Below are positions 1 through 16,785 of a stretch of DNA of 64,000 nt, piece by piece. The notes beneath the pieces are model-generated. The model searched no databases, was not told the origin of the DNA, and saw nothing but the letters and a program-made list of their open reading frames with translations. The DNA is taken from NCBI GenBank assembly GCA_002742935.1, contig PDON01000064.1:8514-72513 (forward strand), read 5' to 3'. Both the position numbers and the translations under genes were made by a program. Within the stretch, counting starts at the first letter, position 1. Each line of letters begins with the position of its first letter. This stretch comes from Candidatus Cloacimonadota bacterium (GTDB lineage Bacteria > UBA4055).

Positions 1-1140
1 GATTGTGGTATTGTTCCTGTTCCTGAAAAAGATCTTCCTGTTACCCTTCCTGAAGGTGATCATATCGATTACAGACCAAAGGGTAAAGCACCTCTTTCAC
101 TTATAGATTCCTATATGAATACAAGCTGTCCAAAGTGTGGAAAAGCCGCTAAAAGAGATCCTGAAACTATGGACACATTTGTAGATTCTTCATGGTATTT
201 CCTAAGATATGTAAACCCTAAATTGGATGATAAACCTTTTGATAGTAACGAGGTAAATAGTTGGCTCCCTGCTGATCTCTACATTGGTGGTGCTGAACAT
301 ACAAACGGACACTTAATATACTCAAGATTTGTAACAAAAGTTTTATACGATATGGGATATATAAACTTTGAAGAACCATATAAAAAACTTGTACATCAAG
401 GTATGATTACAAGAAATGGTTCAAAGATGAGTAAGAGTAAAGGAAATGCTGTTTCTCCCGACTATTTTGTAGGAAAATATGGAACTGATGTGTTTAGACT
501 ATATGTTATGTTTATGACAAATTTTAGAGAAGGTGGAGATTGGTCAGATGAGGGTATTACCGGTCTTGATAGATTTGTAAATAGAATCTGGAGACAATTT
601 GTTGAAACAGAGTATGAGAATAGTGGAAATATGGTAATAGATCAAGATCTTAATTACTCTCTTCATAACACTATAAAGGAGGTTAGATCCAACTTAGAGG
701 ATTTATACTTTAATACTGCTATTTCCAGAATGATGGAGCTTTTTAATGAACTATCATCCTATACTAAAGACAGTAAAAGGTTTAATCCGGACTTCTACAA
801 CTTTGTTAAGGAGAAGTTTATACTGCTTTTAGCTCCTCTAGCTCCACATGTAAGTGAAGAGCTTTGGGAAAGATTAGGAAATAAACCTTCAATATTTAAT
901 CAAACAATGCCGGATTATGATGAAAAAGCTTTGGTTAAATCTACTCAGGTGGTGGTTGTTCAGGTTAATGGCAAGGTAAGAGCTAACATTGAAACCTCAA
1001 TTGAGGCTACGGATGATGAGATTAAGGATTTGGCTCTTAATGATACTAATGTCAAAAAGTTCTCTGAAGGTAAGACCATTGTCAAAACTATTTTGATAAA
1101 TAGAAAAGGTGGTAAAATGGTCAACCTTGTTGTTAAGTAG
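1..1140 (+). CDS. leuS: Leucine--tRNA ligase, C-terminal part; the 5' end lies upstream of the window
   Basis: The reading frame is open from nt 1 (DCGIVPVPEKDLPVTLPEGD...) and continues into the 115..1140 ORF. The ORF carries a LeuS zinc-knuckle and C-terminal anticodon-binding region (CPKCGKAAKRDPETMDTFVDSSWYFLRY, VQVNGKVRA). Confidence 0.88.
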   Translation, partial: DCGIVPVPEKDLPVTLPEGDHIDYRPKGKAPLSLIDSYMNTSCPKCGKAAKRDPETMDTFVDSSWYFLRYVNPKLDDKPFDSNEVNSWLPADLYIGGAEHTNGHLIYSRFVTKVLYDMGYINFEEPYKKLVHQGMITRNGSKMSKSKGNAVSPDYFVGKYGTDVFRLYVMFMTNFREGGDWSDEGITGLDRFVNRIWRQFVETEYENSGNMVIDQDLNYSLHNTIKEVRSNLEDLYFNTAISRMMELFNELSSYTKDSKRFNPDFYNFVKEKFILLLAPLAPHVSEELWERLGNKPSIFNQTMPDYDEKALVKSTQVVVVQVNGKVRANIETSIEATDDEIKDLALNDTNVKKFSEGKTIVKTILINRKGGKMVNLVVK

Positions 1141-1166
1141 AACTCTCTAGAGAGTTTTATTTAATT
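1141..1166 (+). terminator. Rho-independent terminator after leuS
   Basis: The palindrome aactctctagagagtt lies immediately after the stop and is followed by a T-rich run (ttatttaattt). Confidence 0.5.
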
Positions 1167-1449
1167 TGTCTAATAAGTTAGCTGCAAACTTATTAGGAAA
1201 TGATGCAAGACTTTTAACCTATAGGAAATTAATAATGTAAGAGAGAATGTAGAGAGAGGTTGTATCCTCTCTCTACATTAGTCTTCTGTAACTTTATAGT
1301 TTTTATGTTTTTAAAAGAAAATCCTAGATATAGAAATTGCTTAGAAAATGGATTATAGGAAGAAATAATCCTTTAAAGAATATTCATTTCTTCGGTATTT
1401 ATTTTATGAAATAGTATATTTAATAGATCCTAAAATCTATGGAGAAAAA

Positions 1450-2520
1450 ATGGTAGAAAAGAGTTTAAAACTTATAGCAGATGTTGATCAAATAAAGAGT
1501 AATATATCAAAAGTTTATAATAAAATATCTTCTCAAAATATAGGTTTTAGACCACATTTTAAAACTCATCAAAGTAGAATGATGGGCAAGTTTTTTAAAG
1601 ATTTTGATATAGATAAAATAACAGTTTCTTCCATACCTATGGCAGAATATTTTTCAGATCAGTTTAAGGATATAACCATAGCTTTTCCTTTAGATATTAA
1701 TGAAATAGAGAAATTAAACAGTATAGATAGAACTGTTACCCTAAATCTTTTAATTGTTGATCCTTTGCAGATAGAGTTCTTAAAAACTATTAAAAGGGAT
1801 ATAAATATATTTATAGAGATTGATTGCGGTTATGGAAGGTCCGGAGTTATTGCCAAAAATTTTGATATGATTGAAAAACTTATAAATGGTATAGAGGGTA
1901 TACAAAATTTATACTTTAAAGGTTTTCTAACCCATTCAGGTAACAGCTATGGAGCAAAATCAAAATTTGAGATAGAGAGTATCTATTATCATGACTTAGA
2001 ACTTATGAAAAGTTTAAAGGAAAGGTTTAAAAGTTCTAAACCAATAATCTCAATGGGGGATACTCCTTCTACTTCTATTGTTAAGGATTTTGGCGAAGTA
2101 GATGAGCTTAGACCGGGGAATTTCATATTTTACGATTTCATGCAAGTAGAACTTGGAGCTACAAAATATTCTAACATTGGAGTGTATTTAAAATCTTCAG
2201 TTGTTCAAACTAAAAAAGATAGCTTTGTTATATCAGCAGGAGCCGTAGATCTTTCAAAAGAGTTTATAATATCCAGTAATAAAATATCATACGGCAAAAT
2301 ATTTGACAGTAATGATAGAGAAAAAATTGTTGGAAATATTTATTCTCTTTCACAGGAGCATGGATTGGTTGAAGTTGTTGATAAGAACTGGTTTAAAGGT
2401 ATAAAGATTGGTGATTTTGTTAATATCTATCCTATTCACTCCTGTTTAACTGCGGACTGTTTAGGAAAGTACTATGGAAGTGATGAAAAGATCTATGACC
2501 ATTTTAAATTAAAAGGCTAG
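1450..2520 (+). CDS. PLP-dependent enzyme of the DSD1 / alanine-racemase-fold family (D-serine deaminase / D-threonine aldolase-like)
   Basis: The N-terminal RPHFKTHQS motif (PLP-lysine, HxKTHK-like) is typical of the alanine-racemase N-terminal domain in DSD1-family proteins. The 356 aa length fits the family. Confidence 0.55.
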   Translation: MVEKSLKLIADVDQIKSNISKVYNKISSQNIGFRPHFKTHQSRMMGKFFKDFDIDKITVSSIPMAEYFSDQFKDITIAFPLDINEIEKLNSIDRTVTLNLLIVDPLQIEFLKTIKRDINIFIEIDCGYGRSGVIAKNFDMIEKLINGIEGIQNLYFKGFLTHSGNSYGAKSKFEIESIYYHDLELMKSLKERFKSSKPIISMGDTPSTSIVKDFGEVDELRPGNFIFYDFMQVELGATKYSNIGVYLKSSVVQTKKDSFVISAGAVDLSKEFIISSNKISYGKIFDSNDREKIVGNIYSLSQEHGLVEVVDKNWFKGIKIGDFVNIYPIHSCLTADCLGKYYGSDEKIYDHFKLKG

Positions 2521-2891
2521 ATAATATCTTATGAAAAAATCAACATTATACTATTTAATAATTTCCAGAGATATTTTCTAAGTAAAATATAAGTGTTTTA
2601 TAATGATATCCACCAAAAACTATACAGTCAATATGGTAAAAAGAGTTCATAAAGCTAAAGATTTAGCTTAACTATCTCTTTGTTATCTTCATTGAAAGTG
2701 GGATACATTTATCCATCAAGAGTTCTGCTTATTTGGATTCGTTTTACTGTAACTTCTAAAGTTTTTTATCCTTCTAAAAGTAGACACTATTTATAAGATA
2801 GTGTAATTTTTGCAATATTTATCATATTTATATACCAATGTTGTAGTTAATCTTATAGTATACGGAAAACTAATTAATAGAGGAGTATTTT

Positions 2892-3353
2892 ATGAAGTAC
2901 CTGTTTACCCTAGCAGTTTTGCTATCTTTTACTTTTGTTTATTCGGTATCTTATGATTCAAAGGAATTAAAAAAAGTAAAAAAAGTTGAGAAAGTTGAGA
3001 AAGTAAAAAAAGTTGAGAAAAAAATTGATCTTAGACTTTGTGGAAATTGTGGAGAGGTTAAAGGTAGTGAAAATTGCTGTAAGCCAAATATGAAGGAATG
3101 CAGTAATTGTGGACTACATAAAGGATCTCCTGGATGTTGTAAGATGGAAAAAGGAAAAGATCTCAAGCTTTGTATTAAGTGTGGCGAGGTTAAAGGAAGT
3201 AAAAAATGTTGTGATCCTAAAATTAAAAAGTGTTCTAAGTGTGGATTACATAAAGGATCTCCGGCTTGTTGTGTAAAACATAAGCATAGAGATTATAAGA
3301 AGAAGATTAAAAAAGATCCTGCTTCTTGTAAAGTAAAGAGTAGTTGTAATTAG
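2892..3353 (+). CDS. Secreted cysteine-rich, lysine-rich repeat protein; putative metal-binding, metallothionein-like
   Basis: It has an N-terminal signal peptide, a KVEKVEKVKKVEK tract, and two 44-aa repeats each with 8 Cys in the pattern CxxC-x7-CC-x6-CxxC-x7-CC. The RBS is aggag-like (tagaggag). Confidence 0.55.
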   Translation: MKYLFTLAVLLSFTFVYSVSYDSKELKKVKKVEKVEKVKKVEKKIDLRLCGNCGEVKGSENCCKPNMKECSNCGLHKGSPGCCKMEKGKDLKLCIKCGEVKGSKKCCDPKIKKCSKCGLHKGSPACCVKHKHRDYKKKIKKDPASCKVKSSCN

Positions 3354-3400
3354 AAAAGGTTCAGGGCTCGCCGGAGAGAAGCAATTTTTAAGACAATATG

Positions 3401-3428
3401 AGGGTGGAAATTTCCACCCTTTTTTATT
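3401..3428 (+). terminator. Rho-independent terminator
   Basis: A perfect 20-nt palindrome agggtggaaatttccaccct is followed by tttttatt. Confidence 0.6.
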
Positions 3429-3612
3429 GTATTATTATTTGGTTTTGCTTTCTTAAAAGATTAATATTTAAGATATGGTTAAGTTATTTTTTTGTTGATA
3501 ATGATAAAAAGTTATACAATTAATGTAGCTCCTACTGAAAAAAGGATAGAAAATTATTAATAATCCTAAGTAAGTTAACACAAGATTTATGATGAGATCA
3601 TTATAAACGGGC

Positions 3613-4358
3613 TCATTCATATATCTCATTTTCTATTATCGGTAGTATCTTTTCTGACCATTTTTTGTAACCCATTCCGTTCAAATGAACACCATCATCA
3701 TTACAGTATTCGTTGCGTAATTTACCATTATTTGAAAATACTTTATTCAGTTCTATATATTGTATACTATTTTTTTCACACATATTTCTAATTTTCTCAT
3801 TAACAATTTTTACACTCTTATTATTTTTTTCCCATGAATCAAATTTTTCAGAAAGATATAATATTGAAAAAATAAAGGGCTTTATATTATGTTCTTTTAG
3901 CTCCTTAACAATTTTATATAGGTTATCTACAATATTTTCAGGGGTTACTCCTTTTCCAATATCATTTATTCCTCTCCCATTATAAAGCATATCTTTGGTT
4001 CTGCTTTATAAATATATTCCATTCTTGATAAGAATCCTTCAGTTGTATCACTACCAATACCTCTGTTTATTATATCATTTCTGTTTAGAAGTTCATTCCA
4101 ATTAACTCCATATGTAATGGAGTTCCCAAGCATAACTATATTGCCTTTTTTATTGTACTGTTTATAAAGGTCTATCTCTTTGGTATATTCACAATTTTTT
4201 TGATATTCTTTTCTCATATCAAATTGATTATAAAACCTTTTATATACTCTTAAGGGATAATCTTCTCTAATTATTATAAAAACAAGTATAAATAATAATA
4301 TAATATTTGAGACTATAAGAAACCTTTTTCCAGCCTTTACCTTAATTCTATCAAACAT
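3613..4358 (-). pseudogene. SGNH/GDSL-family hydrolase split by a frameshift, with an N-terminal membrane anchor
   Basis: ORF 3966..4358 carries SGNH blocks I and II (GNSITYG; GIGSDTT). ORF 3613..3990 carries blocks III and V (GINDIG; DGVHLN). The two overlap by 25 nt in different frames at the ataatgggagaggaataaatgat junction. Confidence 0.6.
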
Positions 4359-4631
4359 AAGAAACCTTTTCTATTTAGTAATTATAACTAAAACATATCT
4401 ATTTGATATGATATATATCTAATGAAATATTTTTTTATTTGAAATACTCTATAATCGGAAAAGACCAATTATAGAGTATTTTTATATTCATTAATCAAAA
4501 GATTATAAGTAGTTTCTATTCAATTAAATAACTTCAAAAATAATATTTTGATGAAAGTCTCAAAAAGATTACTAACGAGAATTAAAAATAGTTATAGTCG
4601 AATTTTTTTTCATTACTCCCTTTAAATATAT

Positions 4632-5738
4632 TTATTTATAATCTTTATTTGATATCTCTTTCCCTAGTTTATACTCTGTTTCCTGTATAAGTTTTCCTGC
4701 TAAATCATATCGCTTCCAAGTTCCATCTTTTTCGTCATTTTTATAATTACCTTCCCAGTTTACTCTGTTTGCTTCATTGTAGCTTTTATATAAACCATTC
4801 AGAACATCATCTTTATAAGTTCTTTCGGCAACTAAACGACCATCCTCTTCATAGAAAGTTTTCCAAATGCCTGTTTTAAAATCATCTTTGTAATTTCCCT
4901 CTTCCAGTTTAATACCTTTTTCACTGTATTTTTCAAAAAGACCATTTTTTTTGCCATGAGAAAAATTTAGAACTTCTTTTTTATTTCCATTTTTGTAGAA
5001 AACAACTACTTGTTCTATTTGATCTTTACTAAATGTTTCTTCACTCAGTAAAATTCCATCTTGATTATATCTCTTCTGTTTCCCATCCAGTTTGAAGTCT
5101 TTAAAGGTTTTATCAATTGACAACTTACCGTTAGGATAGTAACCTTTATGTCTGTAAGTTCCCTCATTCTCATATTCTCTTTCCCAATCTATTTTCCCAT
5201 CTGAATGTCTTTGCTCGGAATGCCCAAAATGTACGCCCTCTTTATAGTTTTCGGTAACATAGATTACAGCATTATTGGTAGTTTTACCTTTTTTCCACCA
5301 TTTCCCTTCTGCTTTACCATGTTTGTAGAACTCACGAGCTTTAACCTCTCCTTTATCATCAAAGTATTCCCATTTCCCTTCCTGTTTCCCATCTACAAAT
5401 TCACCTTCTGTACTCACTTTTCCATTTTGATGAAAACGTTTATAGTTTCCGTGTGTTTTACCATTTTTAAAAGATTTTTCACACAGCTTATGCTCTTTGT
5501 AGTCGTAATCTGTTTGGTTTCCAACTTTCTTTCCACCTTTAAAATGAACATCTATAAAATTACCTCGACTATCTGCAATTTTATAATGACCGTCTAAAAG
5601 ATTATTTGAATTATCTTTATACAAAATATCAGTACCAAACCTTTGCTCCTTAATCTCATTTTCCATTACCAAGTTTTGTGCAAAAATTTGTGATGCTATC
5701 AATAAACATCCGGCTATCAAGATTGCGATTCTTTTCAT
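4632..5738 (-). CDS. MORN-repeat-variant (YwqK-like) lipoprotein
   Basis: It has a signal peptide ending LIAGCLL and many GxxxGxWxxYxxNGK-like repeats (GKKVGNQTDY..., GKTHGNYKRFHQNGK..., GKQEGKWEYFDDKGE...). Confidence 0.55.
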   Translation of the reverse strand: MKRIAILIAGCLLIASQIFAQNLVMENEIKEQRFGTDILYKDNSNNLLDGHYKIADSRGNFIDVHFKGGKKVGNQTDYDYKEHKLCEKSFKNGKTHGNYKRFHQNGKVSTEGEFVDGKQEGKWEYFDDKGEVKAREFYKHGKAEGKWWKKGKTTNNAVIYVTENYKEGVHFGHSEQRHSDGKIDWEREYENEGTYRHKGYYPNGKLSIDKTFKDFKLDGKQKRYNQDGILLSEETFSKDQIEQVVVFYKNGNKKEVLNFSHGKKNGLFEKYSEKGIKLEEGNYKDDFKTGIWKTFYEEDGRLVAERTYKDDVLNGLYKSYNEANRVNWEGNYKNDEKDGTWKRYDLAGKLIQETEYKLGKEISNKDYK

Positions 5739-5845
5739 AAATCCTTCCTTTTCTATTTGATATTAAAAGCTGTAAAAAAGAAATATAATCACTCTTATCT
5801 TTATAACAACTATTTAAACTTTCCGTTATTTAAGAAGATTCTTAA

Positions 5846-6244
5846 CTATTTTTTTAGTTCTAAATCTAAATATCTACTACTTCCAATAGTTATGTAATAT
5901 AGGGGATATAATAATATAACTCCTGCTACTGCCAAAAAAAGAATAACTTTAGTAAACATAAAGAGCATTACAAAAAGCATAAAAACACCTTTTATTAGAT
6001 CCTCATATTTAAAACTATTTAGATTTAGAGTTACTACTTCATCATCTTCAAGGTCAACTTTTATTTTCTTGCTTCCACACCAAGCAGATTTTGCATAAAC
6101 TTCATGTTTGCCTTTCTCCAACTCATACTCTTTTGTCTCTTTCTTTATTTCTCCAAGAGCTTTTTCATCAATATAAACCTTTGCAGGTTTATTGCTTACT
6201 ATCTTAATTTTTCCCATTTTGCTCTCTTTTGTAATATCTTCCAT
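5846..6244 (-). CDS. PEGA-domain-like protein with a C-terminal transmembrane helix
   Basis: KIKIVSNKPAKVYIDEKALGEI...LEKGKHEVYAK fits the PEGA pattern. The C-terminal half is hydrophobic. Confidence 0.35.
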   Translation of the reverse strand: MEDITKESKMGKIKIVSNKPAKVYIDEKALGEIKKETKEYELEKGKHEVYAKSAWCGSKKIKVDLEDDEVVTLNLNSFKYEDLIKGVFMLFVMLFMFTKVILFLAVAGVILLYPLYYITIGSSRYLDLELKK

Positions 6245-6857
6245 TTTATCCTCCCTCCATTAATGAATAACAGTACAATTTGTTAAGAGATATTAAACAT
6301 CTACATTCTTTGAAATATAACTCTTCTTATAATGTTTTATTGGTAATTACTAATAAATGATAAACAACTAATCAAAGTATAAATTATCATTACTATTAAA
6401 AGTTCTTACTTTAAAATAATAATGTCAACTCTATTGGTAATATTTTTTTACACAAAATTAAGCTATAATTTAACCTTTTATATTTGATAGGTAGTATATC
6501 CTGAAAAAGGATAAGAATATATTATTTAATATTTTATATGATTATTATTGAAAAAGAATTCAAGTTTTTAAAGTGTGATCTATGCAAACTTTAAGTTTAA
6601 TATAAAGAAAAAAGAATAAAGCAAAAATTTAGATTTACTCTTTCTTTGTGATCTATGCTAGAGTGGATTCCTATTATTTGTCTATCTTAAGCTTTGTTTA
6701 TTGGGTTATAATACCATTATCTTTAAAACTATTTCCGTAGCCATAAATCCAATTTAAAATTCTTAAATAAGATTTTTTTAAGTAGACCTTGGAGATAATT
6801 GTGAATTGTGTTTAAATTAGGGTTTTGTTATTAAATATATCAACCAGTAAAGTTAAG

Positions 6858-7604
6858 CTACTTGGATCTTATATTATATCTCTTCTTCAATAATTCAATT
6901 TTTTTGGTATCACTAATTGGAATTCTGAGCTTTCTTATTTTTACAAAATCTTTACTTGTAGTTTCTAAACTTGGAATAAAACCTTTATGAAGGGTAATAA
7001 ATTCAATAAAATTTTTACCTGTCTTAATTTTTTTAATTTTAATCTTATTTCTCCAATCTGAAAAACTCAAGGGGAAAATCCATCTATTTACAAATATTAC
7101 TTCTCTGTAAAACTTTATTATGTATTTTTCTGAAAAAATATTGTTTACCAACTCATCTTTAATATATTTTCCCAAAATAATAAATAGAGGTAATAAAAAA
7201 GATAAAAATAGATTCAGTAAAACAAAAAATACAACAGGATCTTCCTTATAAATAATTATAAAAAGAAAGGAAAACGGAAGTAAAAATGAAATAAGGATTG
7301 CAATCTTTACAAAAAAAGTTTTTAGGTAATCTTTTTTTCTATTCTCCAACCAAACTTTTTTATCAATTTCCAGTTCTAAAATAAAATCATAGCTCTTTAT
7401 AAAATCCTGCTTTGACTTGATTAAGTAGTAAAATATTTTTAGAACTATTGCTGTGGAGATAAGATATGAAAAGATGAGAAAGGATTTATCTAAGGCAATA
7501 AGCTCTTCTGAAACCAATACTAACAAAGATCCCATAGAAATACACATAAAAGTAACTAAACTAAGAATTATAATTACTTGCTTAAAAGGATGTATTTCAT
7601 TCAT
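6858..7604 (-). CDS. Hypothetical polytopic membrane protein
   Basis: This is a 248-aa ORF with several hydrophobic segments and no recognisable motif. Confidence 0.35.
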   Translation of the reverse strand: MNEIHPFKQVIIILSLVTFMCISMGSLLVLVSEELIALDKSFLIFSYLISTAIVLKIFYYLIKSKQDFIKSYDFILELEIDKKVWLENRKKDYLKTFFVKIAILISFLLPFSFLFIIIYKEDPVVFFVLLNLFLSFLLPLFIILGKYIKDELVNNIFSEKYIIKFYREVIFVNRWIFPLSFSDWRNKIKIKKIKTGKNFIEFITLHKGFIPSLETTSKDFVKIRKLRIPISDTKKIELLKKRYNIRSK

Positions 7605-7670
7605 ACTGTATATTCATTTTAATTATACTTATCAATAAATATAAAATTAATACTTTAAGAAGGGAAGGTT

Positions 7671-7710
7671 ATAGCCTAAAAGAAGCTCAAATGAGATTCT
7701 TTTAGGCTAT
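7671..7710. other. 14-bp-stem intergenic hairpin
   Basis: Arms atagcctaaaagaa and ttcttttaggctat form a perfect inverted repeat around a 12-nt loop. Confidence 0.3.
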
Positions 7711-7723
7711 TAATTTGTAAGTA

Positions 7724-9535
7724 CTATTTAACAAGTATCATCTTCTTAGTTTCACTAAAACCATTTACGGAAAGTTTATAGAAATAAACACCGGAATTTA
7801 AGCTTTCAGCATTAAATTCAACGGAGTGGTAACCACTACCCATATCTCTATCTATGAGAGTATTAATAATCTCACCGTTTGAGTTGAAAATTTGGAGTTT
7901 AACGCTAGAATCATCTGAAATTTTGAAATTTATAGAAGTTTTAGGGTTAAATGGATTTGGATAATTTTGTGAAAGATAAAACCCTTTTACCATATTTAAC
8001 TCGTTAGTTGATATCCCGGAGCTAAAAGATATAGATACATTATCAATAGACCAGTTGTTTATTTGATAAGAGTCTCCTGAAAATTGGAAAGCTATATATA
8101 GAGAACTTGACCCAACATGATTGTTTGAAATTTCCATAAAAAATGACTCAGGACCAATATTTTGGGTGTTGTCAAAAGTATGAACAACTTCCCAATTCAC
8201 ACTATCTGTAGAGGTGACAATTTTACAATCATAACCAGGTCCATAATAGTTTATCATATGATCAAAAGATAAAAAAACAGAAGATTTTCCCGAAGTATCT
8301 AGAGGTTTAACTATAAGATATTGTTCTCCAACAGTAGCAGGATTCCAATAAAACTCCGCTTCAGGAGAAGAACCTCCCGCATTGCTTGAATATCCATGCC
8401 TCCAATTATTACCTTTAACTATCCAACCTTCAGGAGGGAAGTTTTCAAACCCTTCAAACACTAAAGTATTACCGGTAATAAAGGAAACCGTATTTGATAC
8501 AGCCTCTAATCCTGCTCCTATATTATTAACAGCGACAACAGTATAATTGTAGTTTGAAGATAGAGGTATAGTGTTGTCTGAAAATGAGGTAGCCATACCC
8601 TCTAAAGTAAACTCTTGTCCATCATTTCTGGTAATAGAGTAAGAGATTATAGAGTCATAAATATACAAACCACCATTAGCTCCAACTGTAGGGTTTTCCC
8701 AACTTAATTCTGCTATACCCTCATTGTTAACAAGTGTAAGGTTATTAACCATTCCCGGTACATCTTCACCAACATAAATTGATGTTTTTGTAGGTAATCC
8801 CTCACCTGCTTCATTAACACCAACAATCTTATAGGTGTACAAACCACTTTCAGGTATTGAACTATCCATATACTCTTTCTCTTCACCCATTTCAGGAGAA
8901 TCAAAACTTGTTATGAGGGTTTCGTTTCTATAAAGCTTAACAGCTGTAAGAGAAGTTAAAGGCTCTCCACTAAATGTAATACTAGGATTTTTCCACGAAA
9001 GATCAACATTAAAAGAGTTATTGTTATTTAATGTTGAAGTAAAATCTGTTGGAGCTCCCGGAGCACCACTATCAAACATTTCATTCATTGCAAGCTTTAA
9101 TTGAACATCAAAGTTTCTATCATTGTCATTATAGTAAACCTTATAGTCTCTGCCTATCACACCAAACAAAGGTACATATCCATTTGAAAAGCCACCTGAG
9201 TTGTCATACAGAGGCAAAGATATTGGATAGTTTTGATTTTCCCAATTTTCAGTACAAACCCAAAAAGATCTTCCTGCCCACTCGGTTCCGGAATTTTCTC
9301 CGTAAATTTCCGCCCATTTCTCCTGTAATATCGGCGCCGCCGAGGTACAGCCACCTCACCACGACTGACCCCAAAAAATCATTACTACTTTACCTTCATC
9401 AACCTGCTCATAGATTGATGTTTCTAAACCATCTTCTGTAGTGAAGCTGATGTTTTCACATACATCCCCTATAGCATATTCTGCTGGAAGTAGAGAAGCC
9501 AAAACCATTAAAAATAAAATTAAAGTTTTTTTCAT
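7724..9535 (-). CDS. Secreted TlpA-like thioredoxin-fold selenoprotein (UGGC motif) fused to Fn3/beta-sandwich domains and a T9SS C-terminal sorting domain; paralog 1. The ORF track shows only 7724..9217
   Basis: ATG at 9535 has an AAGGAGGG RBS and is followed by signal peptide MKKTLILFLMVLASLLPAEYA. The frame is open apart from a single in-frame TGA at 9358..9356 (codon 60) in the context VVMIFWGQSW-U-GGCTSAAPIL. A thioredoxin-like cis-Pro region (GYVPLFGVIGRDYKV) follows. The C-terminus (NYPNPFNP...VYFYKLSVNGF...MILVK) is a classic T9SS sorting tail. Confidence 0.55.
9318..9358 (-). promoter_or_regulatory. Candidate bacterial SECIS element directly 3' of the in-frame UGA of paralog 1
   Basis: UGA-GGU-GGC-UGU-ACC-UCG-GCG-GCG-CCG is an anomalously GC-rich codon choice in an AT-rich genome. 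GAGGU/ACCUC and CGGC-GGC-GCCG mini-hairpins can form. The same block is conserved at nucleotide level in paralog 2. Confidence 0.3.
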
Positions 9536-9667
9536 AAAAGTACCCTCCTTATGTAAGACATTTACGTATAAATTTATCTCTATAATAATATAACAAACAA
9601 AAAAAATAGCATGCTGGCAAGAGAAAAAAATATTTAAAACTAGTTAATATAGTCTCACATTTAAAAT

Positions 9668-9700
9668 AAAAAGCCTCCAATTTTGGAGGCTTTTTATTTT
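9668..9700. terminator. Terminator hairpin downstream of paralog 2, usable from either strand
   Basis: aaaagcctccaattttggaggctttt is flanked by A/T runs on both sides. Confidence 0.5.
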
Positions 9701-9719
9701 AAATATTTTTAAGAAAGTG

Positions 9720-11522
9720 TTACTTAACAAGTATCATTTTCTTAGTTTCACTAATACCGTTTACTGAAAGTTTATAGAAATAAACACCAGAATTTAAGCT
9801 TTCTGCATTAAATTCAACAGAGTGATAACCGCTACTCATATCCTTATCTACAAGAGTACTAACAAGCTCACCGTTTGAGTTGAAAACAGCTAAATTAACA
9901 GCTGATCTACTTGAAGTATTAAAGCTTATAGTAGTTGTAGGATTAAATGGATTTGGATAGTTTTGTGAAAGAGTGAACTCTTTTACACTATTGAATTCAT
10001 CAATTGAAGAGTTTAAAGCAATTGAAACATCATCAATATACCAATCATTTATTTGATAAGAGTCTCCTGAGAACATAAAAGCAAGATAAAATGTTTCAGA
10101 TCCAACATGATCATTTGAAATCTCTGTAGAGAATAGTTCCGGTCCTATATCTTGACCAGGGAAAGTATGAGCAACCTCCCAGTTTTCCATATCTGTAGAA
10201 GTAACTATTTTACACTCATAGCCAGGACCATAATAGTCAATCATATTGTTAAAAGCAATAGATATAGAACTTTTTCCTGATGTGTCTAAAGGCCTAGTTA
10301 TAAGGTATTGATCACCAACAGTTTGAGGAGACCATCCAAACTTAGCCTCAGGTGCTGTCCCACCGGCATAATTTGCATATGAAGCTCTCCAATTTTCACC
10401 TTGAACAGTCCACCCTTCAGGAGGAAAGTTTTCAAAGGTTTCAAGTAGTAATGTTGAGTTTGGAATAAAGCTAACTGTATTTGATACGGCCTCTAACCCG
10501 GCTCCTACATTATTATTAGCTACAACGGTGTAACTATAGTTTCCGGCTAGTGTTATAGAGTTGTCTGAAAAGGATGTAGTCATACCTTCTAAAGTAAACT
10601 CTTCACCATCATTTCTAGTAATAGTATAAGAGGTTATAGAGTTTTCTACATAGTATCCGTTATGTGCTCCAACCATTGGATTTGTCCAACTTAGATCAGC
10701 AACTCCATTATTATCAACTAAGTTAAGCCCGGTAACCATTCCCGGAGCATCTTCACCAATATAAACTGTTTTAGAGCAAGGAATTCCTTTGCCTGCTTCA
10801 TTAACACATTGAATTTTATAGATATGTAAACCCTCTTCAGAAATAGAGTTGTCCGTATAACTCATTTCTGCTCCTACCTCAGGAGATTCAAAGCTATTAA
10901 CTAACTCTCCATCCAAGTAAAGGTTAATATTTGATATTGAAGGCAAAGGAGCTTGACCTATTGTTTGAGAAGGGTTTGTCCAAGAAAGATCTACGCTAAG
11001 AGCTCCTTCTCCATCAGGAGTTACTGAAAAGTTACTTGGAGCTAATGGAGCTGCACTATCATACATTCCATTCATTGCAAGCTTCAATTGTTGCTCAAAA
11101 TTTGTAGAGTTAGAATTGTAGTAAACTTTGTAATCCTTACCTATAATTCCAAACATAGGAACATATCCGTTATCAAAGCCACCTATATTATTGTATAAAG
11201 GTACCGATATAGGATAGTTTTGATTTTCCCAATTTTCAGTACAAACCCAAAAAGATCTTCCTGCCCACTCAGTCCCTGAGTTGGTACCGTAAGTATTTTC
11301 CCACATCTGTTGTAAAACCGGCGCCGCCGATACACAACCACCTCAACCACTGCTTCCCCAGAAGATTAGAACGACCTTCTCTTGATCAACCTGCTCATAG
11401 ATTGATGTTTCTAAACCATCCTCTGTAGTAAAGCTAATGTTTTCGCATACATCTCCTATAGCATATTCTGCTGAAAGGAGAGAAGCCAAAACCATTAAAA
11501 ATGAAATTAAAACTTTCTTCAT
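9720..11522 (-). CDS. Secreted TlpA-like thioredoxin-fold selenoprotein (UGGC motif) with Fn3/beta-sandwich domains and a T9SS C-terminal domain; paralog 2. The ORF track shows only 9720..11306
   Basis: ATG at 11522 has an AGGAG RBS and is followed by signal peptide MKKVLISFLMVLASLLSAEYA. A single in-frame TGA at 11345..11343 is again codon 60, in the context VVLIFWGSSG-U-GGCVSAAPVL. The same T9SS tail is present. The protein is about 70% identical to paralog 1. Confidence 0.55.
11306..11345 (-). promoter_or_regulatory. Candidate SECIS element 3' of the UGA of paralog 2
   Basis: UGA-GGU-GGU-UGU-GUA-UCG-GCG-GCG-CCG conserves the same rare GC-rich codons (tcg gcg gcg ccg) as paralog 1. Confidence 0.3.
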
Positions 11523-11687: not shown

Positions 11688-13781
11688 ATGGTGAAATACT
11701 GGAAAATTGTAGTGAAGATATCTCTCTTCATGGCTTTGGTTGGCTGTGCTTTTGAGAATCAACTTTTTTTTGGAGTTGAAAAAGCGGAACTCAAAATACC
11801 TTTTGGTAAAAAGAGATATGATTTTGTAAGAATGAATGATGATGCAGACTTAGAAGAGATGGAGATTGGAGGTAATCTAAAAATTGAGACAATACATGAT
11901 TCAGCTGTTTTAGCAATTTACAAGATAAAAATAGATGGAGAGTCTAATGAAAAACAGTTTCGATTTAATGAGACTGTTCTACCATTTACTGAAGTTCCTG
12001 CTATAACTAAATCTTCCAGTGTTAGCATATACAGTAGCGAAAATCCAGAACTAAAGTGGGCAAAGGTAAATAACGGATCTCTTTACATCAGTATTGAAAA
12101 TCAGTTCGGAGATTTATCATTTTCAAAGATAAGATTTTCGTTGAAAAATAACGAAAGCTCTTTTGATCCAGACCTAAATGTTTCATCATTTCTTATTTTA
12201 AGGGATTCGATATCAGATCTTATGCCGGGTGAAACAAAAAACTATTTTAAGGATCTAAAAAATGAATGGATTACTGATAATATGGAACTTGAAGTAGCCT
12301 ATATCAACAACTCTCTTTCGGCAGATCAAAATGTTAATGGTGTAGATTCTTCCCAATTTATCCGATTTAACTATAGTATTACAAATTGTTCTTTTGACAG
12401 TAGTAAGGTTCTGTTTAGTAATAAAACCGTAGAGCATGATACTTCATACGCATTTAATATCAAAAATATAAATCCTAGATTTATTGAAACAAAAGATGCT
12501 GAAATTAGAGTTATAGTAGATAATGAAAGTCCATTTTTAATTGGGATAGAACCTCAAATGGATTCTCTTTACAGTCTAAACACTAATTCTATTTATGAGT
12601 TTGATAGCATAATGGTGGGAGCACACGAAAAAAGTAGATCAAAATTTAATATTGAAAATACAAAGCTTCTTTTTAATTCAGAAACAAAAGAGACAGGTTT
12701 TAAATATAAAATAAACCTAAAATCTCCCGATAATAGTGAATATTTAAGATTTTCTCAGTCCGATAGTACTTTTCTTAAGCTTATAATAACAGGGATATCG
12801 GAAGGTTTTGAGAATGAAAGGGATTTTGGAGTTAGCAAAATAGATGGCTCTTTTGTCTCAAAAGATATTGAACTTGAAGAATCAAAGTCTGAGATTGATG
12901 TAGATTGGAGCGAGTTTGAGGGCTTTCATGTAGATTCCATAGGTGTGAACCTTTCTTTAGATATTTTGAGAGAAGGTTTTACAATGGATAAAATTGAGAT
13001 AGATACTCTTTATTTAAGAGGTCTGAAAAAAAGTGGGGAGCTTAGCGATCTTTACAATATTGAGATTCCAACTTTAGAGAATTTTAGTGATACAACTATT
13101 AGGGTAACGGGTTTTGAGGATCTTATAAACTTTAAACCAGACTCTATATTCTATTCGGGAAAAGCTGTTTTTGACTACAATGGAACAATAAATGACAGTG
13201 ATAAAATTAAGCTAAATATTGAGTTTGGGGTTCCTGTTCAAGGAGTAGTTGAGGATACAATAAAAAGATCTGGTGATGTTGAAACAATTGAGGCTTTTAA
13301 CAAAGATGATGGTAATATCCACTATAAAATTGATGATCTTATACTGGATGCTTTTCTAAATTATCAGCTAACAAATAAAGATTCCGATAATGTTGAATTC
13401 TGGGCTGAAATTGAGGTTCTGTTTTCTGAAACAGCAACGGAAACATTTGACAGGGGAAAAGATTCATTAACAGGTGATATTAAAACTCTATTTAAAGCTA
13501 GAGTGAGGAACGACAATATTAATGAGCATGGTTATTATCTTTCAGACCCTTCAATAAATCCTCAATTTATAGGTGATGGATATTTTGTTGACAATGAAGG
13601 TATTCATGTAAATGGAGAACTTGCAAATAAAATTATAAACAAAGATACATATGTTCAGCCTGTGTTTAGGATATTTCCAACTAATCCCGGGAAGTATATA
13701 AAGATGAGTATTGATGATTATATTGATGTACAGCTTAAAGCTAATGCGAAAGTTACAATTAAGTACGAACATAATAATTAA
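11688..13781 (+). CDS. Large lipoprotein, hypothetical
   Basis: A lipobox-like LVGC follows an N-terminal hydrophobic stretch. The 697-aa protein is Asn/Ser/Asp-rich with no known motif. It is divergent from the selenoprotein pair. Confidence 0.45.
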   Translation: MVKYWKIVVKISLFMALVGCAFENQLFFGVEKAELKIPFGKKRYDFVRMNDDADLEEMEIGGNLKIETIHDSAVLAIYKIKIDGESNEKQFRFNETVLPFTEVPAITKSSSVSIYSSENPELKWAKVNNGSLYISIENQFGDLSFSKIRFSLKNNESSFDPDLNVSSFLILRDSISDLMPGETKNYFKDLKNEWITDNMELEVAYINNSLSADQNVNGVDSSQFIRFNYSITNCSFDSSKVLFSNKTVEHDTSYAFNIKNINPRFIETKDAEIRVIVDNESPFLIGIEPQMDSLYSLNTNSIYEFDSIMVGAHEKSRSKFNIENTKLLFNSETKETGFKYKINLKSPDNSEYLRFSQSDSTFLKLIITGISEGFENERDFGVSKIDGSFVSKDIELEESKSEIDVDWSEFEGFHVDSIGVNLSLDILREGFTMDKIEIDTLYLRGLKKSGELSDLYNIEIPTLENFSDTTIRVTGFEDLINFKPDSIFYSGKAVFDYNGTINDSDKIKLNIEFGVPVQGVVEDTIKRSGDVETIEAFNKDDGNIHYKIDDLILDAFLNYQLTNKDSDNVEFWAEIEVLFSETATETFDRGKDSLTGDIKTLFKARVRNDNINEHGYYLSDPSINPQFIGDGYFVDNEGIHVNGELANKIINKDTYVQPVFRIFPTNPGKYIKMSIDDYIDVQLKANAKVTIKYEHNN

Positions 13782-13808
13782 AAAATAAAATTAGGAAACG
13801 GATAAGCT

Positions 13809-15095
13809 ATGCTGAGATATATAATTTTAACTCTTATATTTTTCACGGCTATTGAAGCACAACAATTCAGTATAAAAAACTTTTCACTATCATCATCTGA
13901 TATGATAAATATTCAGAGTGATGAAGTAAACGGGCTAAATCCTGCACTACCAAATTTCAACCAAAACGGGAACTATTATATAAGCTTTATACCTGTAGCG
14001 TTAAACAACAGCTTTTTAATGGATTATAAGGAAAAACAGTTTGATAATGCAGAGCTAATGCTTACAAAAAAAACTATTAATGATATGATAAACATGGCAG
14101 ATTACGGGTGGAAATGGAGAGAAAAATATAGAGCTTCTATTTTTTCCATGGGTTTCTACAATCAATCAATTTCTATTTCAACAAACTCTATGGCTACATT
14201 AAACCTCCCTGTAGATCTTTTAAAAGTTCTAAGAGGTTACGATTATAACAAGGAGTATGGTTTCAATGATTTTGGTTTAGAAATTTTGCACTATATTTCA
14301 TTTGAATATTCATACTCATTTGATCTTTCAACACTATTTGATCCTCAAAAAATAGGATTGAACAGAGCCTCTTTGGGAATAGGGGCAAGAGTTTTATACT
14401 CTCCTAGATACTATTCAGCAGAAAGTTTGTCTGGGTCGTTAACAATAAATGATGAAAACTCTTCCAATCCCGGAACTATAAATTTAGATACGCAGGTAGA
14501 AATTTTTAATTCCTTTGGAGGTATTGGTAAGGGGTTTGATTTTGGTTTTGCAGGAGAGGTAAATGAAAGCTTTAAAATAGGAGCATCACTTACGAATCTC
14601 TTTGCATCCATTTATTTCAATACTGACAATAAAACAAGAAGGCATGGTCTAATTGTAAACGATTATCTCGACTATACAGAGTTTGATAGTGACTCCATAA
14701 TAACATCAACAGAAATAGATGAGAAAGTAAAAGAGGATAAAAGAACTGTATCTTTGCCGGTTAAGTTTTCTCTGGCTTTTTCATATGACTACATAACAGA
14801 AAATAATTGTTTTACAATTACATCATCATACATTCAGGGTTTTGAAGATAGATTGGATATATCCTCTATACCACAAATTAATATAGGGGTAGAGTACTCA
14901 TATATTGATCATGATTGGATTAAACTTAGACAGGGTTTTAGTTTTGGAGGGAATGAGAGAACTGCATTTGCTTCTGGATTAAATTTTAATTTTTCATACT
15001 ATGAAATTGATTTAGCAGTAGCTTATCAACTGTTTGGTGAAAGTTCAGAGTTTAGAACAACAGGTTTATCCCTTTCTCAAAAATTTAAATTTTAA
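13809..15095 (+). CDS. Outer-membrane beta-barrel protein; possibly a T9SS-associated PorV/PorP-like barrel, which is speculative
   Basis: It has a signal peptide, alternating amphipathic beta-strand character and a C-terminal ...KFKF (terminal Phe), typical of OMPs. It is co-oriented and adjacent to the lipoprotein gene. Confidence 0.4.
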   Translation: MLRYIILTLIFFTAIEAQQFSIKNFSLSSSDMINIQSDEVNGLNPALPNFNQNGNYYISFIPVALNNSFLMDYKEKQFDNAELMLTKKTINDMINMADYGWKWREKYRASIFSMGFYNQSISISTNSMATLNLPVDLLKVLRGYDYNKEYGFNDFGLEILHYISFEYSYSFDLSTLFDPQKIGLNRASLGIGARVLYSPRYYSAESLSGSLTINDENSSNPGTINLDTQVEIFNSFGGIGKGFDFGFAGEVNESFKIGASLTNLFASIYFNTDNKTRRHGLIVNDYLDYTEFDSDSIITSTEIDEKVKEDKRTVSLPVKFSLAFSYDYITENNCFTITSSYIQGFEDRLDISSIPQINIGVEYSYIDHDWIKLRQGFSFGGNERTAFASGLNFNFSYYEIDLAVAYQLFGESSEFRTTGLSLSQKFKF

Positions 15096-15453: not shown

Positions 15454-16785
15454 ATGGAGACTTTTATGGGTTACACTTTTAAAGGAGGATATCACCCACC
15501 TGATGGTAAGAGTCTTTCTGAACACTGTAAAATTGAACAGATTCCTCAACCGGATACTGTTGCTATTCATCTTTCCCAACATATAGGAGCACCTTCAAAG
15601 CCTATTGTTTCCATAGGTGAGGAGGTAAAAGTTGGGCAACCTCTAAGTGAAGCAGCAGGATTTGTATCAATTCCTGTTCATTCTTCGGTTTCCGGAAAGG
15701 TTAAGGCTATAGCAAAAATAGCTGATTCAAATGGAGTAAAACATGATGCTGTCATAATAGAAAATGATAAAGAGGATACTCTTTTTGAGGGTGTTGGTGT
15801 CAAGAGAGATTACTCAGATTTTACACCTGATGATATGAGAAAAATAATTGGAGCTTCAGGAGTTGCGGGAATGGGTGGAGCAAGATTCCCTACTCATGTA
15901 AAACTTTCAGTTCCCAAAGATAAAAAGATAACTCATGTTATTCTAAATGGTGTTGAGTGTGAACCATATCTAACAGCAGATGACAGACTTATGCAGGAAA
16001 CTCCTGAAACTATTGTTGAAGGTCTTCTCATAATGATGAAAATATGTAATGCTGAAAATGGTATTATAGGTATTGAGCTTAATAAACCAAAAGCTATTGA
16101 AACAATGGAAAAAGCTGTAGCTAACATACCAAATGTTAAGATAATAGGTTGTAAAGTGAAATATCCTCAAGGAGGGGAGAAGCAACTTATAGTAGCTGCT
16201 CTTGGTAAAGAGGTTCCTTCAGGAGGATTACCTATGGATGTTGGAGCCGTTGTTTCCAATGTTGGTACTGCACACTGTATATATGAAGCCATTGCTCTTG
16301 GAAAGCCTTTGTATGAAAGAGTTGTAACTGTAACCGGAGAAGGTGTTAATTCTCCTAAAAATATACTTGCTAAAATTGGAACTCCTGTAAAAAATCTTGT
16401 TGATTATGCAGGTGGTCTCAAGGAGGATATTCACAAAGTTATTAATGGTGGGCCTATGATGGGAGCTTCTATGTCAGATCTTCTATCTCCTGTTCATAAA
16501 GGAACCTCCGGTGTTTTATGTATTACAAAAGCTGATGGTGAACTTCTGGAAGAGCAACCATGTTTGAGTTGTGGTAAATGTGTAACTGTTTGTCCTATGA
16601 GACTTGTTCCTTGTAGTATGGCAACTTTGGTTGAGTTTGGAAAATATGAAGAGGCTCAAAAACTTGGAATAATGGATTGTATAAGTTGTGGAACTTGTGC
16701 TTATGTATGTCCATCTAAGAGAAATCTTGTTCACTATTTTATTCGTGGCAAGGGTGAAGTAATGAAAATGAAAACAACTAGGTAG
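15454..16785 (+). CDS. rnfC: Rnf complex subunit C (NADH-binding, 2x[4Fe-4S])
   Basis: It contains CLSCGKCVTVCP and CISCGTCAYVCP ferredoxin motifs. It sits in the rnfCDGEAB order. Confidence 0.85.
   Translation: METFMGYTFKGGYHPPDGKSLSEHCKIEQIPQPDTVAIHLSQHIGAPSKPIVSIGEEVKVGQPLSEAAGFVSIPVHSSVSGKVKAIAKIADSNGVKHDAVIIENDKEDTLFEGVGVKRDYSDFTPDDMRKIIGASGVAGMGGARFPTHVKLSVPKDKKITHVILNGVECEPYLTADDRLMQETPETIVEGLLIMMKICNAENGIIGIELNKPKAIETMEKAVANIPNVKIIGCKVKYPQGGEKQLIVAALGKEVPSGGLPMDVGAVVSNVGTAHCIYEAIALGKPLYERVVTVTGEGVNSPKNILAKIGTPVKNLVDYAGGLKEDIHKVINGGPMMGASMSDLLSPVHKGTSGVLCITKADGELLEEQPCLSCGKCVTVCPMRLVPCSMATLVEFGKYEEAQKLGIMDCISCGTCAYVCPSKRNLVHYFIRGKGEVMKMKTTR

What the first reader, a model, noticed from the sequence alone, without database searches (positions are those of the whole stretch)
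9306..9358. Conserved GC-rich codon block immediately 3' of both UGA codons, a SECIS-like RNA constraint
After the TGA both paralogs read ggt-gg(c/t)-tgt-(acc/gta)-tcg-gcg-gcg-ccg. In this genome Ala, Pro and Ser are normally encoded by A/T-ending codons, yet TCG GCG GCG CCG is used and is identical at nucleotide level in both copies, while flanking codons have diverged. The second copy is at 11306-11345. That pattern indicates selection on RNA, not protein. The segment can form GAGGU-GGCUGU-ACCUC and a CGGC-GGC-GCCG GC-clamp hairpin starting about 13 nt after UGA. That is the expected location of a bacterial SECIS stem-loop with G in the apical loop.
Basis: seen in the sequence. Interest (0 to 1): 0.75.

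Follow-up and report, generated by a model that had tools for sequence, protein, structure and literature searches.

The report
Selenocysteine insertion hairpin in secreted thioredoxin-like genes
The GC-rich codons after the in-frame UGA of two neighbouring genes form a small RNA hairpin, kept by compensating mutations in 17 relatives, that fits the bacterial signal for reading UGA as selenocysteine. The genes belong to an unannotated family of secreted thioredoxin-like selenoproteins that databases wrongly split in two.

Summary
Both features lie on the minus strand.

- **The genes.** Two tandem paralogs (7724-9535 and 9720-11522) each carry one in-frame TGA in a U-G-G-C motif. This motif sits where the thioredoxin CxxC motif would be.
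- **The block.** TCG GCG GCG CCG follows the TGA 13 nt downstream. Given this 32% GC window's codon usage, it has P = 4e-6. CGGCGCCG occurs nowhere else in the 64 kb.
- **The relatives.** I recovered 15 more family genes from other assemblies (29-81% protein identity). All have the TGA. All can fold a hairpin at the same spot: CGGC-GGC-GCCG or compensated variants AGGC/GCCU, GUGGC/GCCAC, CGGU/ACCG, GUGGA/UCCAC and CGUCG-GUUC-CGACG. The core stem is 95.6% paired.
- **Fit to the model.** All four structural criteria of the published bacterial SECIS model are met.
- **What was wrong.**
- **Cys versions.** No close Cys-containing homolog turned up among 1.84 billion representative proteins. Every database entry is truncated just after the UGA.
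- **Not shown.** SelB binding, Sec insertion and the presence of selABCD in this genome.
- **Side observation.** TGA ends only 1 of 60 genes in this organism.

This is a new member of a known kind.

The parts
7724..9535 (-). Gene g1: one reading frame of 603 codons with a single in-frame UGA (codon 60). It has a signal peptide, a thioredoxin-fold domain with W-U-G-G-C, FN3-like and choice-of-anchor-J-like regions, and a T9SS C-terminal sorting domain.
   Evidence: Translation. Pfam Por_Secre_tail 1.1e-10, with AhpC-TSA and fn3 below cut-off. NCBIfam TIGR04183 and choice_anch_J. Public gene calls split it into 59 aa + 497 aa.
9356..9358 (-). In-frame UGA of g1, proposed Sec codon (the U of UGGC).
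   Evidence: It aligns with the first Cys of CxxC in thioredoxin, PDI and ResA.
9329..9345 (-). g1 conserved hairpin. The core CGGC-GGC-GCCG is at 9332-9342, and flanking pairs extend it to 9329-9345. The apical loop GGC is at 9336-9338, with 17 nt between the UGA and the loop. It overlaps the codons TCG GCG GCG CCG (9332-9343).
9322..9351 (-). g1 lower (outer) stem: CUGU(A) at 9346-9351 pairs with (U)ACAG at 9322-9327 and encloses the hairpin. It is partly conserved. This part should be melted once the UGA is in the ribosomal A site.
   Evidence: Alifold. 73.5% paired across 17 sequences, with C-G/U-A covariation at pair 9/36. The inference on melting is from PMC4513850.
It is not conserved.
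   Evidence: It is the RNAfold MFE for g1 only. It is absent from g2 and from all orthologs.
9720..11522 (-). Gene g2: the paralog of g1, with 600 codons, a single in-frame UGA at codon 60 (G-U-G-G-C) and the same architecture.
11343..11345 (-). In-frame UGA of g2, proposed Sec codon.
11316..11332 (-). g2 conserved hairpin. The core CGGC-GGC-GCCG is at 11319-11329, extended by the A-U and U-G pairs.
   Evidence: The RNAfold MFE contains it.
11309..11338 (-). g2 lower stem: GUUGUG at 11333-11338 pairs with UACAAC at 11309-11314.
9659..9704 (.). Palindromic terminator-like hairpin between g2 and g1. It suggests the two genes are separate transcription units.
   Evidence: The sub-threshold Rfam hits pile up here.

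Best explanation
The GC-rich block is the upper stem-loop of a bacterial selenocysteine insertion sequence (bSECIS) embedded in the coding sequence.

Proposed mechanism:
- In the mRNA, a 4-7 bp G+C stem closed by a GGC loop starts 11-14 nt after the UGA, so it is predicted to sit just outside the ribosome when the UGA is in the A site.
- SelB-GTP-Sec-tRNASec binds this hairpin and delivers selenocysteine to the UGA, out-competing release factor 2.
- A weaker lower stem (Cys codon region paired with the UUA-CAR region) extends the structure before the ribosome arrives.

The product is a signal-peptide-bearing, thioredoxin-fold UxxC thiol-disulfide oxidoreductase. It is fused to variable beta-rich domains and usually to a T9SS sorting domain, so it is a periplasmic or cell-surface selenoprotein.

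Shown here: the sequence anomaly, conservation of the UGA, the conserved and covarying hairpin, the fit to the bSECIS model, and the thioredoxin-like fold with U at the catalytic Cys position.

Inferred: SelB binding, Sec rather than another residue, and export.
For: (1) Codon anomaly. P = 4e-6, and the 8-mer is unique in 64 kb.

(2) Conserved UGA. 17/17 family genes carry an in-frame TGA in UxxC, with the reading frame open on both sides.

(3) Truncated database entries. An HMMER search of 1.84e9 representatives with the post-U segment gave 22 hits at E<=0.001. 20 are family members, and each begins at its own residue 1-8, aligned to query positions 5-47 just after the U. That is the signature of gene callers stopping at the TGA. 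The other two hits are repeat proteins.

(4) Core stem.
- 95.6% of cells are paired.
- There are 5 double-sided changes and no single-sided changes.
- 0/500 shuffles reach the observed covariation.
- Slid registers reach at most 67.6% paired.
- The 7-bp version has 16 double-sided cells.

(5) Loop. The loop is GGC in 14 sequences, GUC in 1, AGC in 1 and GUUC in 1. G is in loop position 1 or 2 in 17/17. It is often the third base of an Ala codon that is otherwise rarely GCG.

(6) Strand. G-U pairs occur in the flanking pairs of the hairpin and in the lower stem (pairs 13/32, 15/29 and 16/28). They fit only sense-strand RNA.

(7) bSECIS criteria from PMC13188914:
- Loop of 3-9 nt: observed 3-4.
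- Stem of 4-16 bp: observed 4-7.
- G in the first two loop positions: met.
- 16-37 nt from UGA to loop: observed 17-18.
- MFE <= -7.5 kcal/mol: observed -8.2 to -18.3 for 48 nt.

(8) Dual use of UGA in one gene. In L009 the same gene has the hairpin-followed internal UGA and also ends in a genuine UGA stop followed by a terminator. A local signal must distinguish the two.

(9) Catalytic position. The U aligns with the first Cys of CxxC in thioredoxin, PDI and ResA. Pfam AhpC-TSA or Redoxin hits occur in 11 and 7 of the 17 members.

(10) Specificity. A covariance model of the site finds only these two places in the window: 56-60 bits, against at most 12 bits elsewhere.
Against: - No selA, selB, selC or selD gene and no tRNA was found in the 64 kb window, the 16.7 kb second contig or the other loci. 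The Sec-decoding trait of the organism is therefore unverified.
- No close Cys-containing ortholog exists to give the classical Sec/Cys pair.
- Three of the four core base pairs are G-C in nearly all sequences. Covariation therefore rests on about 5 independent events at two pairs, plus the flanks.
- In 5 of 17 sequences, including g1, the 48-nt MFE prefers another fold. Folding z-scores are weak.
- There is no Rfam match, even at E<=10.
- A 3-nt loop is at the lower limit of the model.
Confidence: 0.85

Rival explanations
1. The hairpin stimulates SelB-independent decoding of UGA. This could be near-cognate read-through as Trp or Cys, or a dedicated suppressor tRNA. The lineage may have nearly abandoned UGA as a stop, and the residue at position 60 would not be selenocysteine.
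For: - TGA ends only 1 of 46 genes in the window and 0 of 14 on a second contig of the same assembly. TGA is nevertheless commoner than TAG off-frame.
- No Sec machinery was seen.
Against: - In-frame UGA occurs nowhere else in 46 genes. A general suppressor would allow drift into other sites.
- The position is the nucleophilic Cys site of a CxxC fold, where known selenoproteins place Sec.
- The hairpin matches the SelB-type model in loop G and in spacing.
- The relative L009 uses UGA as a real stop in the same gene.
Confidence: 0.06
2. The UGA is a true stop. A roughly 60-aa secreted peptide and a separate downstream protein are made, and the hairpin is a coupling or attenuation element.
For: All public gene calls annotate it this way.
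Against: - The frame is continuous in 17/17 genes.
- The thioredoxin fold spans the UGA (ResA alignment 4-131).
- There is no conserved start codon after the UGA. The called starts vary (M, V or L at different positions).
- The downstream part would lack a signal peptide although it carries a T9SS sorting domain.
- The residues flanking the UGA are highly conserved.
Confidence: 0.03
3. There is no RNA function. The block reflects protein constraint on S-A-A-P, plus chance codon choice or gene conversion between the paralogs.
For: - A-P after CxxC is conserved in thioredoxins generally.
- The paralogs share other identical tracts.
Against: - P = 4e-6 within the window.
- The same rare codons recur in distant orthologs whose other synonymous sites are scrambled.
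- Third-position changes are matched by changes in the pairing partner.
Confidence: 0.02
4. The block is a DNA-level palindrome (GGCGCC), such as a protein-binding or restriction-modification site.
For: GGCGCC is a palindrome, and it is unique to these two sites.
Against: - The variants keep complementarity, not sequence (CGGUGGCACCG, GUGGAGGCUCCAC).
- G-U pairs are strand-specific.
- The element is always at a fixed distance from an in-frame UGA.
Confidence: 0.02

Closest known systems
Bacterial SECIS consensus (bSECISearch model of Zhang & Gladyshev, as summarised in PMC13188914 Fig. 2A)
   Same: - A stem-loop inside the ORF, directly after the Sec-UGA.
- A small apical loop with G then G/U: the C-GGC-G arrangement fits the N1-G-[G|U]-N-N2 pattern with N1-N2 paired.
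- 17 nt of spacing between the UGA and the loop.
- MFE below -7.5 kcal/mol.
   Different: - The loop is at the minimum size (3 nt).
- The stem is very short (4-7 bp) and almost pure G+C, in genomes of 31-41% GC.
- There is no Rfam model for it.
E. coli fdhF SECIS / SelB system (PMC4513850; spacing from own knowledge of Heider, Baron & Bock 1992 and Liu et al. 1998)
   Same: - Two tiers. A lower part is unwound by the ribosome, and an upper hairpin remains available to SelB when the UGA is in the A site.
- The upper hairpin begins about 11-14 nt after the UGA.
   Different: - There is no bulged U and no GGUC-type loop.
- Binding by a cognate SelB is untested.
- The organism's SelB is unknown.
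Trx-like / Prx-like UxxC selenoprotein families of marine metagenomes (GOS: Trx-like 1-3, Prx-like 1-2, UGSC-containing; PMC2398784)
   Same: - A thioredoxin fold.
- Sec in a UxxC motif at the position of the N-terminal Cys.
- The SECIS lies in the codons of the following helix.
- Some members read UGSC.
   Different: - Those families have many Cys homologs (21 to 7,880 in GOS). None was found here among 1.84e9 representatives.
- This family has a signal peptide, long C-terminal beta-rich domains and a T9SS sorting domain.
- It has no Pfam or NCBIfam model.
- Identity with any numbered GOS family could not be tested, because no sequences were available.
TlpA/ResA-type extracytoplasmic thiol-disulfide oxidoreductases
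   Same: - Exported via a signal peptide.
- A CxxC thioredoxin fold. The profile aligns over 128 positions with ResA 4nmu.
- A V-P (cis-Pro-like) motif.
- A DsbD gene lies next to the family genes in L008.
   Different: - Sec replaces the first Cys.
- The similarity is weak (E 1e-4).
- The domain is fused to T9SS cargo domains.

Membership tests
Bacterial SECIS element (bSECIS model, PMC13188914) | Located in the ORF, immediately downstream of an in-frame UGA. | tested here: met
   The hairpin core starts 14 nt after the UGA in 17/17 genes.
Bacterial SECIS element (bSECIS model, PMC13188914) | Apical loop of 3-9 nt and upper stem of 4-16 bp. | tested here: met
   The loop is 3 nt in 16 sequences and 4 nt in L001b. 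The stem is 4-7 bp.
Bacterial SECIS element (bSECIS model, PMC13188914) | G in one of the first two loop positions, usually followed by G or U. | tested here: met
   GGC in 14, GUC in 1, GUUC in 1 and AGC in 1. AGC has G second but not the G[G|U] pattern.
Bacterial SECIS element (bSECIS model, PMC13188914) | 16-37 nt between the UGA and the apical loop. | tested here: met
   17 nt, and 18 nt in L001b.
Bacterial SECIS element (bSECIS model, PMC13188914) | MFE <= -7.5 kcal/mol. | tested here: met
   The 48-nt MFE is -8.2 to -18.3 kcal/mol in all 17. The isolated 19-nt hairpin gives only -5.0 to -10.0, and in 5/17 the MFE fold is a competitor.
Bacterial SECIS element (bSECIS model, PMC13188914) | Base pairing supported by covariation. 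| tested here: met
   There are 5 compensatory cells in the 4-bp core and 16 in the 7-bp helix. 0/500 shuffles reach the observed score. The core's two central pairs are invariant, or nearly so, and are uninformative.
Bacterial SECIS element (bSECIS model, PMC13188914) | Binds SelB and directs Sec insertion. | not testable with these tools
   This needs EMSA, reporter assays or 75Se labelling.
Bacterial SECIS element (bSECIS model, PMC13188914) | The host encodes selA, selB, selC (tRNA-Sec) and selD. | tested here: inconclusive
   None was found in the 64 kb window, in L014 (16.7 kb) or in the other loci.
Selenoprotein gene (comparative criteria) | The in-frame UGA is conserved in homologs from other organisms. 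| tested here: met
   17/17.
Selenoprotein gene (comparative criteria) | Sec/Cys pair: homologs with Cys at the aligned position. | tested here: inconclusive
   No close Cys ortholog was found. At superfamily level the U aligns with the first Cys of CxxC in thioredoxin, PDI and ResA.
Thioredoxin-fold CxxC oxidoreductase (TlpA/ResA/AhpC-TSA-like) | Profile match across the fold, with the redox motif aligned. | tested here: met
   PDB profile hits have E of 7e-6 to 1e-4, and ResA aligns over positions 4-131. Pfam AhpC-TSA matches 11/17 members (best 3e-9) and Redoxin 7/17. g1 itself is below Pfam's gathering score (24.2 against 26 bits).
T9SS cargo protein | N-terminal signal peptide plus a C-terminal Por_Secre_tail domain. 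| tested here: met
   TIGR04183 / PF18962 score above cut-off in g1 and most members. The signal peptide was judged by inspection only. Three members (L009, L010, L011) end in a different C-terminal module.

The most novel reading that the evidence does not exclude
The family could be an obligately Sec-containing (never Cys) class of T9SS-exported surface oxidoreductases. The lineage carrying it may have almost given up UGA as a stop codon: 1 of 60 genes end in TGA, and TAG ends about half. UGA would then be close to a dedicated selenocysteine codon, with little or no RF2 competition. That would be a natural intermediate of the kind hypothesised in PMC13462651, where Sec use primes the loss of UGA as a stop.
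Probability: 0.1. Interest if true: 0.8.

Novelty: new member of a known kind. Interest (0 to 1): 0.5.

Why it matters
- **Annotation.** At least 17 genes, and about 20 protein clusters at 50% identity, are mis-annotated in public databases as a 60-aa peptide plus an N-truncated protein. Recognising the SECIS restores a complete secreted thioredoxin-like selenoprotein family.
- **Detection methods.** Cys/Sec-pair search methods, which dominate the field (PMC13188914, PMC12013277), would miss this family because it has no close Cys homologs.
- **Dual coding.** The site is a clear case of an RNA structure written into the third codon positions of an A-A-P motif in a very AT-rich genome.
- **Genetic code.** The accompanying near-absence of TGA stops, if it holds genome-wide, would make this organism a useful test of ideas on how Sec decoding and RF2 use co-evolve.

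Tried and rejected
- **Rfam.** Neither the gathering search nor E<=10 on 9200-11450 gave anything at the site. The weak hits all fall on the intergenic terminator.
- **Single-sequence folding.** The z-scores are not significant, so thermodynamics alone cannot decide.
- **Word-indexed protein search.** A query with U replaced by C found no hits. A 17-sequence profile found only P0005.
- I therefore used only the post-U segment and did not attempt AlphaFold.
- **Collection scans.** The Sec machinery of the source genomes could not be searched.
- **Spurious hits.** P0017 and P0022 from the HMMER search are repeat proteins, not Cys homologs.
- **tRNA scans.** The window and 12 of the loci have no tRNA genes.
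- **Literature.** No paper links selenocysteine with T9SS cargo, and no paper was found for the assembly accession.
- **Global reassignment of UGA (code 4 or 25).** Rejected, because no other gene has an internal TGA and L009 uses TGA as a real stop.
Full report
**1. What is at the coordinates**

The feature lies on the minus strand.
- Two adjacent genes, g1 (7724-9535) and g2 (9720-11522), are each a single reading frame interrupted by one TGA at codon 60. The TGAs are at 9356-9358 and 11343-11345.
- A scan for ORFs joined by a TGA finds only these two cases in the window.

**2. Is it more than chance?**

- The window is 32.3% GC. In 43 long ORFs, TCG is 3.2% of Ser codons, GCG 3.5% of Ala codons and CCG 10.4% of Pro codons. 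The four codons together have P = 4e-6 given S-A-A-P.
- CGGCGCCG and GGCGCC occur only at these two sites in 64 kb, and the only 14-mer with 13 or more G/C bases is here.
- The paralogs also share long identical tracts elsewhere (codons 35-46 and 85-103). Their mutual identity alone proves little.
- Single-sequence folding is also inconclusive.
- Rfam has no match at the gathering threshold or at E<=10.

**3. Relatives**

- A degenerate-pattern scan found one ortholog in a Zodletone MAG labelled Bacteroidales (L001, 70% identity) and one in a metagenome (L002, 47%).
- An HMMER search of 1.84 billion representative proteins with the post-U segment gave 22 hits at E<=0.001. Twenty are family members, and each begins at its own residue 1-8, aligned to query positions 5-47 just after the U. 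The other two hits are repeat proteins.
- This means gene callers stopped at a TGA in every case. No full-length Cys-containing homolog exists in that library.
- Fetching the DNA for ten of these hits showed the same layout in nearly every locus. In nine of the ten, a roughly 60-80 aa upstream ORF was called directly before the gene; L009 has no upstream gene call. In all ten the frame continues through an in-frame TGA into the called gene.
- Several loci hold tandem pairs.
- In total there are 17 distinct sites, all in UxxC motifs (UGGC, UGSC, UPGC, UVSC, USGC, UPSC, UPYC, UGTC, UPTC). They come from contigs of 31-41% GC, at 29-81% protein identity to g1.

**4. The RNA structure**

The 48 nt from each UGA align without gaps. 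Thirteen of the 17 sequences have the core CGGC-GGC-GCCG at nt 17-27. The other four vary as follows:

| Locus | Variant | Change |
|---|---|---|
| L006b | AGGC-GGC-GCCU | C-G to A-U; the Pro codon becomes CCU |
| L012 | GUGGC-GGC-GCCAC | to U-A; Pro becomes CCA |
| L013 | CGGU-GGC-ACCG | C-G to U-A; Ala becomes GCA |
| L008b | GUGGA-GGC-UCCAC | two core pairs changed, all still paired |
| L001b | CGUCG-GUUC-CGACG | a different stem in the same place |
| L004 | core kept, with a bulged A | |
| L008a | loop GUC | |
| L011 | loop AGC | |

Counts on the alignment:
- For the 4-bp core, 95.6% of cells are paired. There are 5 double-sided changes and no single-sided ones. 0/500 shuffles reach the observed pairing or covariation. 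Slid registers reach at most 67.6%.
- Extending to 7 bp gives 84% paired and 16 double-sided cells, again with 0/500 shuffles.
- The lower stem (nt 8-13 with 32-37) is 73.5% paired, with C-G/U-A covariation at one pair.
- G-U pairs in the flanking pairs and the lower stem fit only the sense-strand RNA.
- The local hairpin folds in 17/17 sequences, at -5.0 to -10.0 kcal/mol. The 48-nt MFE is -8.2 to -18.3 kcal/mol, and it contains the hairpin in 12/17.
- In the rest of these same genes GCG is 10.7% of Ala codons and CCG is 17.7% of Pro codons. In the block they are near-universal, except where compensation demands otherwise.
- A covariance model of the site finds only the two sites in the window: 56-60 bits, against 12 bits for the next best hit.

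**5. Fit to the known signal**

The published bSECIS model (PMC13188914) has four criteria:

| Criterion | Required | Observed |
|---|---|---|
| Apical loop | 3-9 nt | 3-4 nt |
| Upper stem | 4-16 bp | 4-7 bp |
| G in the first two loop positions | yes | 17/17 |
| Spacing from UGA to loop | 16-37 nt | 17-18 nt |
| MFE | <= -7.5 kcal/mol | -8.2 to -18.3 kcal/mol |

- The C-GGC-G arrangement matches the model's N1-G-[G|U]-N-N2 pattern.
[quoted passage not shown] Here the conserved hairpin begins 11-14 nt after the UGA, and the poorly conserved lower stem lies inside that footprint.
- In L009 the same gene has the hairpin-followed internal UGA and a genuine terminal UGA followed by an intrinsic terminator. 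A local signal, not a global code change, must therefore define the internal UGA.

**6. The protein**

- All members have an N-terminal signal-peptide-like segment.
- The domain around the U matches thioredoxin, PDI and ResA profiles, with the U on the first Cys of CxxC. The E-values are 7e-6 to 1e-4, and ResA aligns over positions 4-131.
- Pfam AhpC-TSA matches 11/17 members and Redoxin matches 7/17.
- A conserved V-P follows at the usual cis-Pro position.
- Most members end in a T9SS Por_Secre_tail domain.
- One locus has a DsbD gene directly upstream.
- The best reading is an exported, probably cell-surface, UxxC thiol-disulfide oxidoreductase.
- No Pfam or NCBIfam model covers the N-terminal domain.

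**7. What is not shown**

- No selA, selB, selC or selD gene and no tRNA was found in the 64 kb window, in a 16.7 kb stretch of a second contig of the same assembly, or in the other loci. The rest of the genome was out of reach.
- SelB binding and Se incorporation are inferred.

**8. Rivals**

- SelB-independent decoding: 0.06
- A true stop with two separate ORFs: 0.03
- Protein-level constraint, chance or gene conversion: 0.02
- A DNA palindrome: 0.02

Each is contradicted by the covariation, the strand-specific G-U pairs, the fold spanning the UGA, or the absence of other in-frame UGAs.

**9. Side observation**

- Of the 46 long ORFs in the window, 23 end in TAG, 22 in TAA and 1 in TGA.
- The single TGA stop belongs to ruvB. 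It lies in an ATGA overlap and is backed by an in-frame TAG two codons later.
- On the second contig the counts are TAA 8, TAG 6 and TGA 0.
- Off-frame, TGA (1233) is commoner than TAG (800).
- This strong avoidance of UGA as a stop in a Sec-using organism recalls the hypothesis in PMC13462651. It is based on only 60 genes.

**10. Verdict**

The real element is the G+C hairpin, not the g1-only GAGGU hairpin.

It is a new member of a known kind: a standard-type bSECIS in a previously unannotated selenoprotein family. The family is apparently Sec-only, is T9SS-exported and has a thioredoxin-like domain.

Noticed in passing
window, all 46 ORFs of 150 aa or more; L014 (second contig of the same assembly): TGA is almost never used as a stop. 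The window has TAG 23, TAA 22 and TGA 1; L014 has TAA 8, TAG 6 and TGA 0. TGA is nevertheless commoner than TAG off-frame (1233 against 800). The one TGA stop (ruvB, 38121-38123) lies in an ATGA overlap with queA and is followed by TAG two codons later. This may reflect weak or absent RF2, with UGA nearly reserved for Sec.
   Followed up: partly
L009 269-271 and 1580-1582: The same family gene has an internal hairpin-followed UGA and a genuine terminal UGA stop, followed by an intrinsic terminator (1606-1632).
   Followed up: yes
window 9659-9704: There is a perfect palindromic terminator-like hairpin (AAAAAGCCTCCAATTTTGGAGGCTTTTT) between g2 and g1. It attracts all the sub-threshold Rfam hits.
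   Followed up: partly
L008 1-488: A DsbD-type gene (DsbD_TM plus thioredoxin domains) lies directly upstream of a tandem pair of family genes. It is a possible electron donor for the exported selenoprotein.
   Followed up: no
window 7724-11522; L006; L008; L001: Family genes occur as tandem or neighbouring pairs. In the window the paralogs share long nucleotide-identical tracts (codons 35-46 and 85-103), which suggests gene conversion.
   Followed up: partly
window 15454-20640 and 46442-52209: Both an Rnf-type and an Nqr-type six-gene operon are present. The window also has anaerobic ribonucleotide reductase NrdD with its activase (57533-60329), and L014 has FlgI. The organism looks like an anaerobic, flagellated bacterium with T9SS, probably of the FCB group.
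   Followed up: no
window 39162-41397: There are two tandem FGE-sulfatase (SUMF1-like) domain genes.
   Followed up: no
window 11688-15095: A 697-aa ORF with no Pfam match and a DUF5723 gene lie divergently next to g2. The same pair flanks the locus in the public contig (L003).
   Followed up: no
L009, L010, L011 C-termini: Three family members lack the Por_Secre_tail domain. They end instead in a shared module (...YDVYSS.NPYGTFTL...FYYIVAKN), so the selenodomain is combined with different C-terminal anchors.
   Followed up: no
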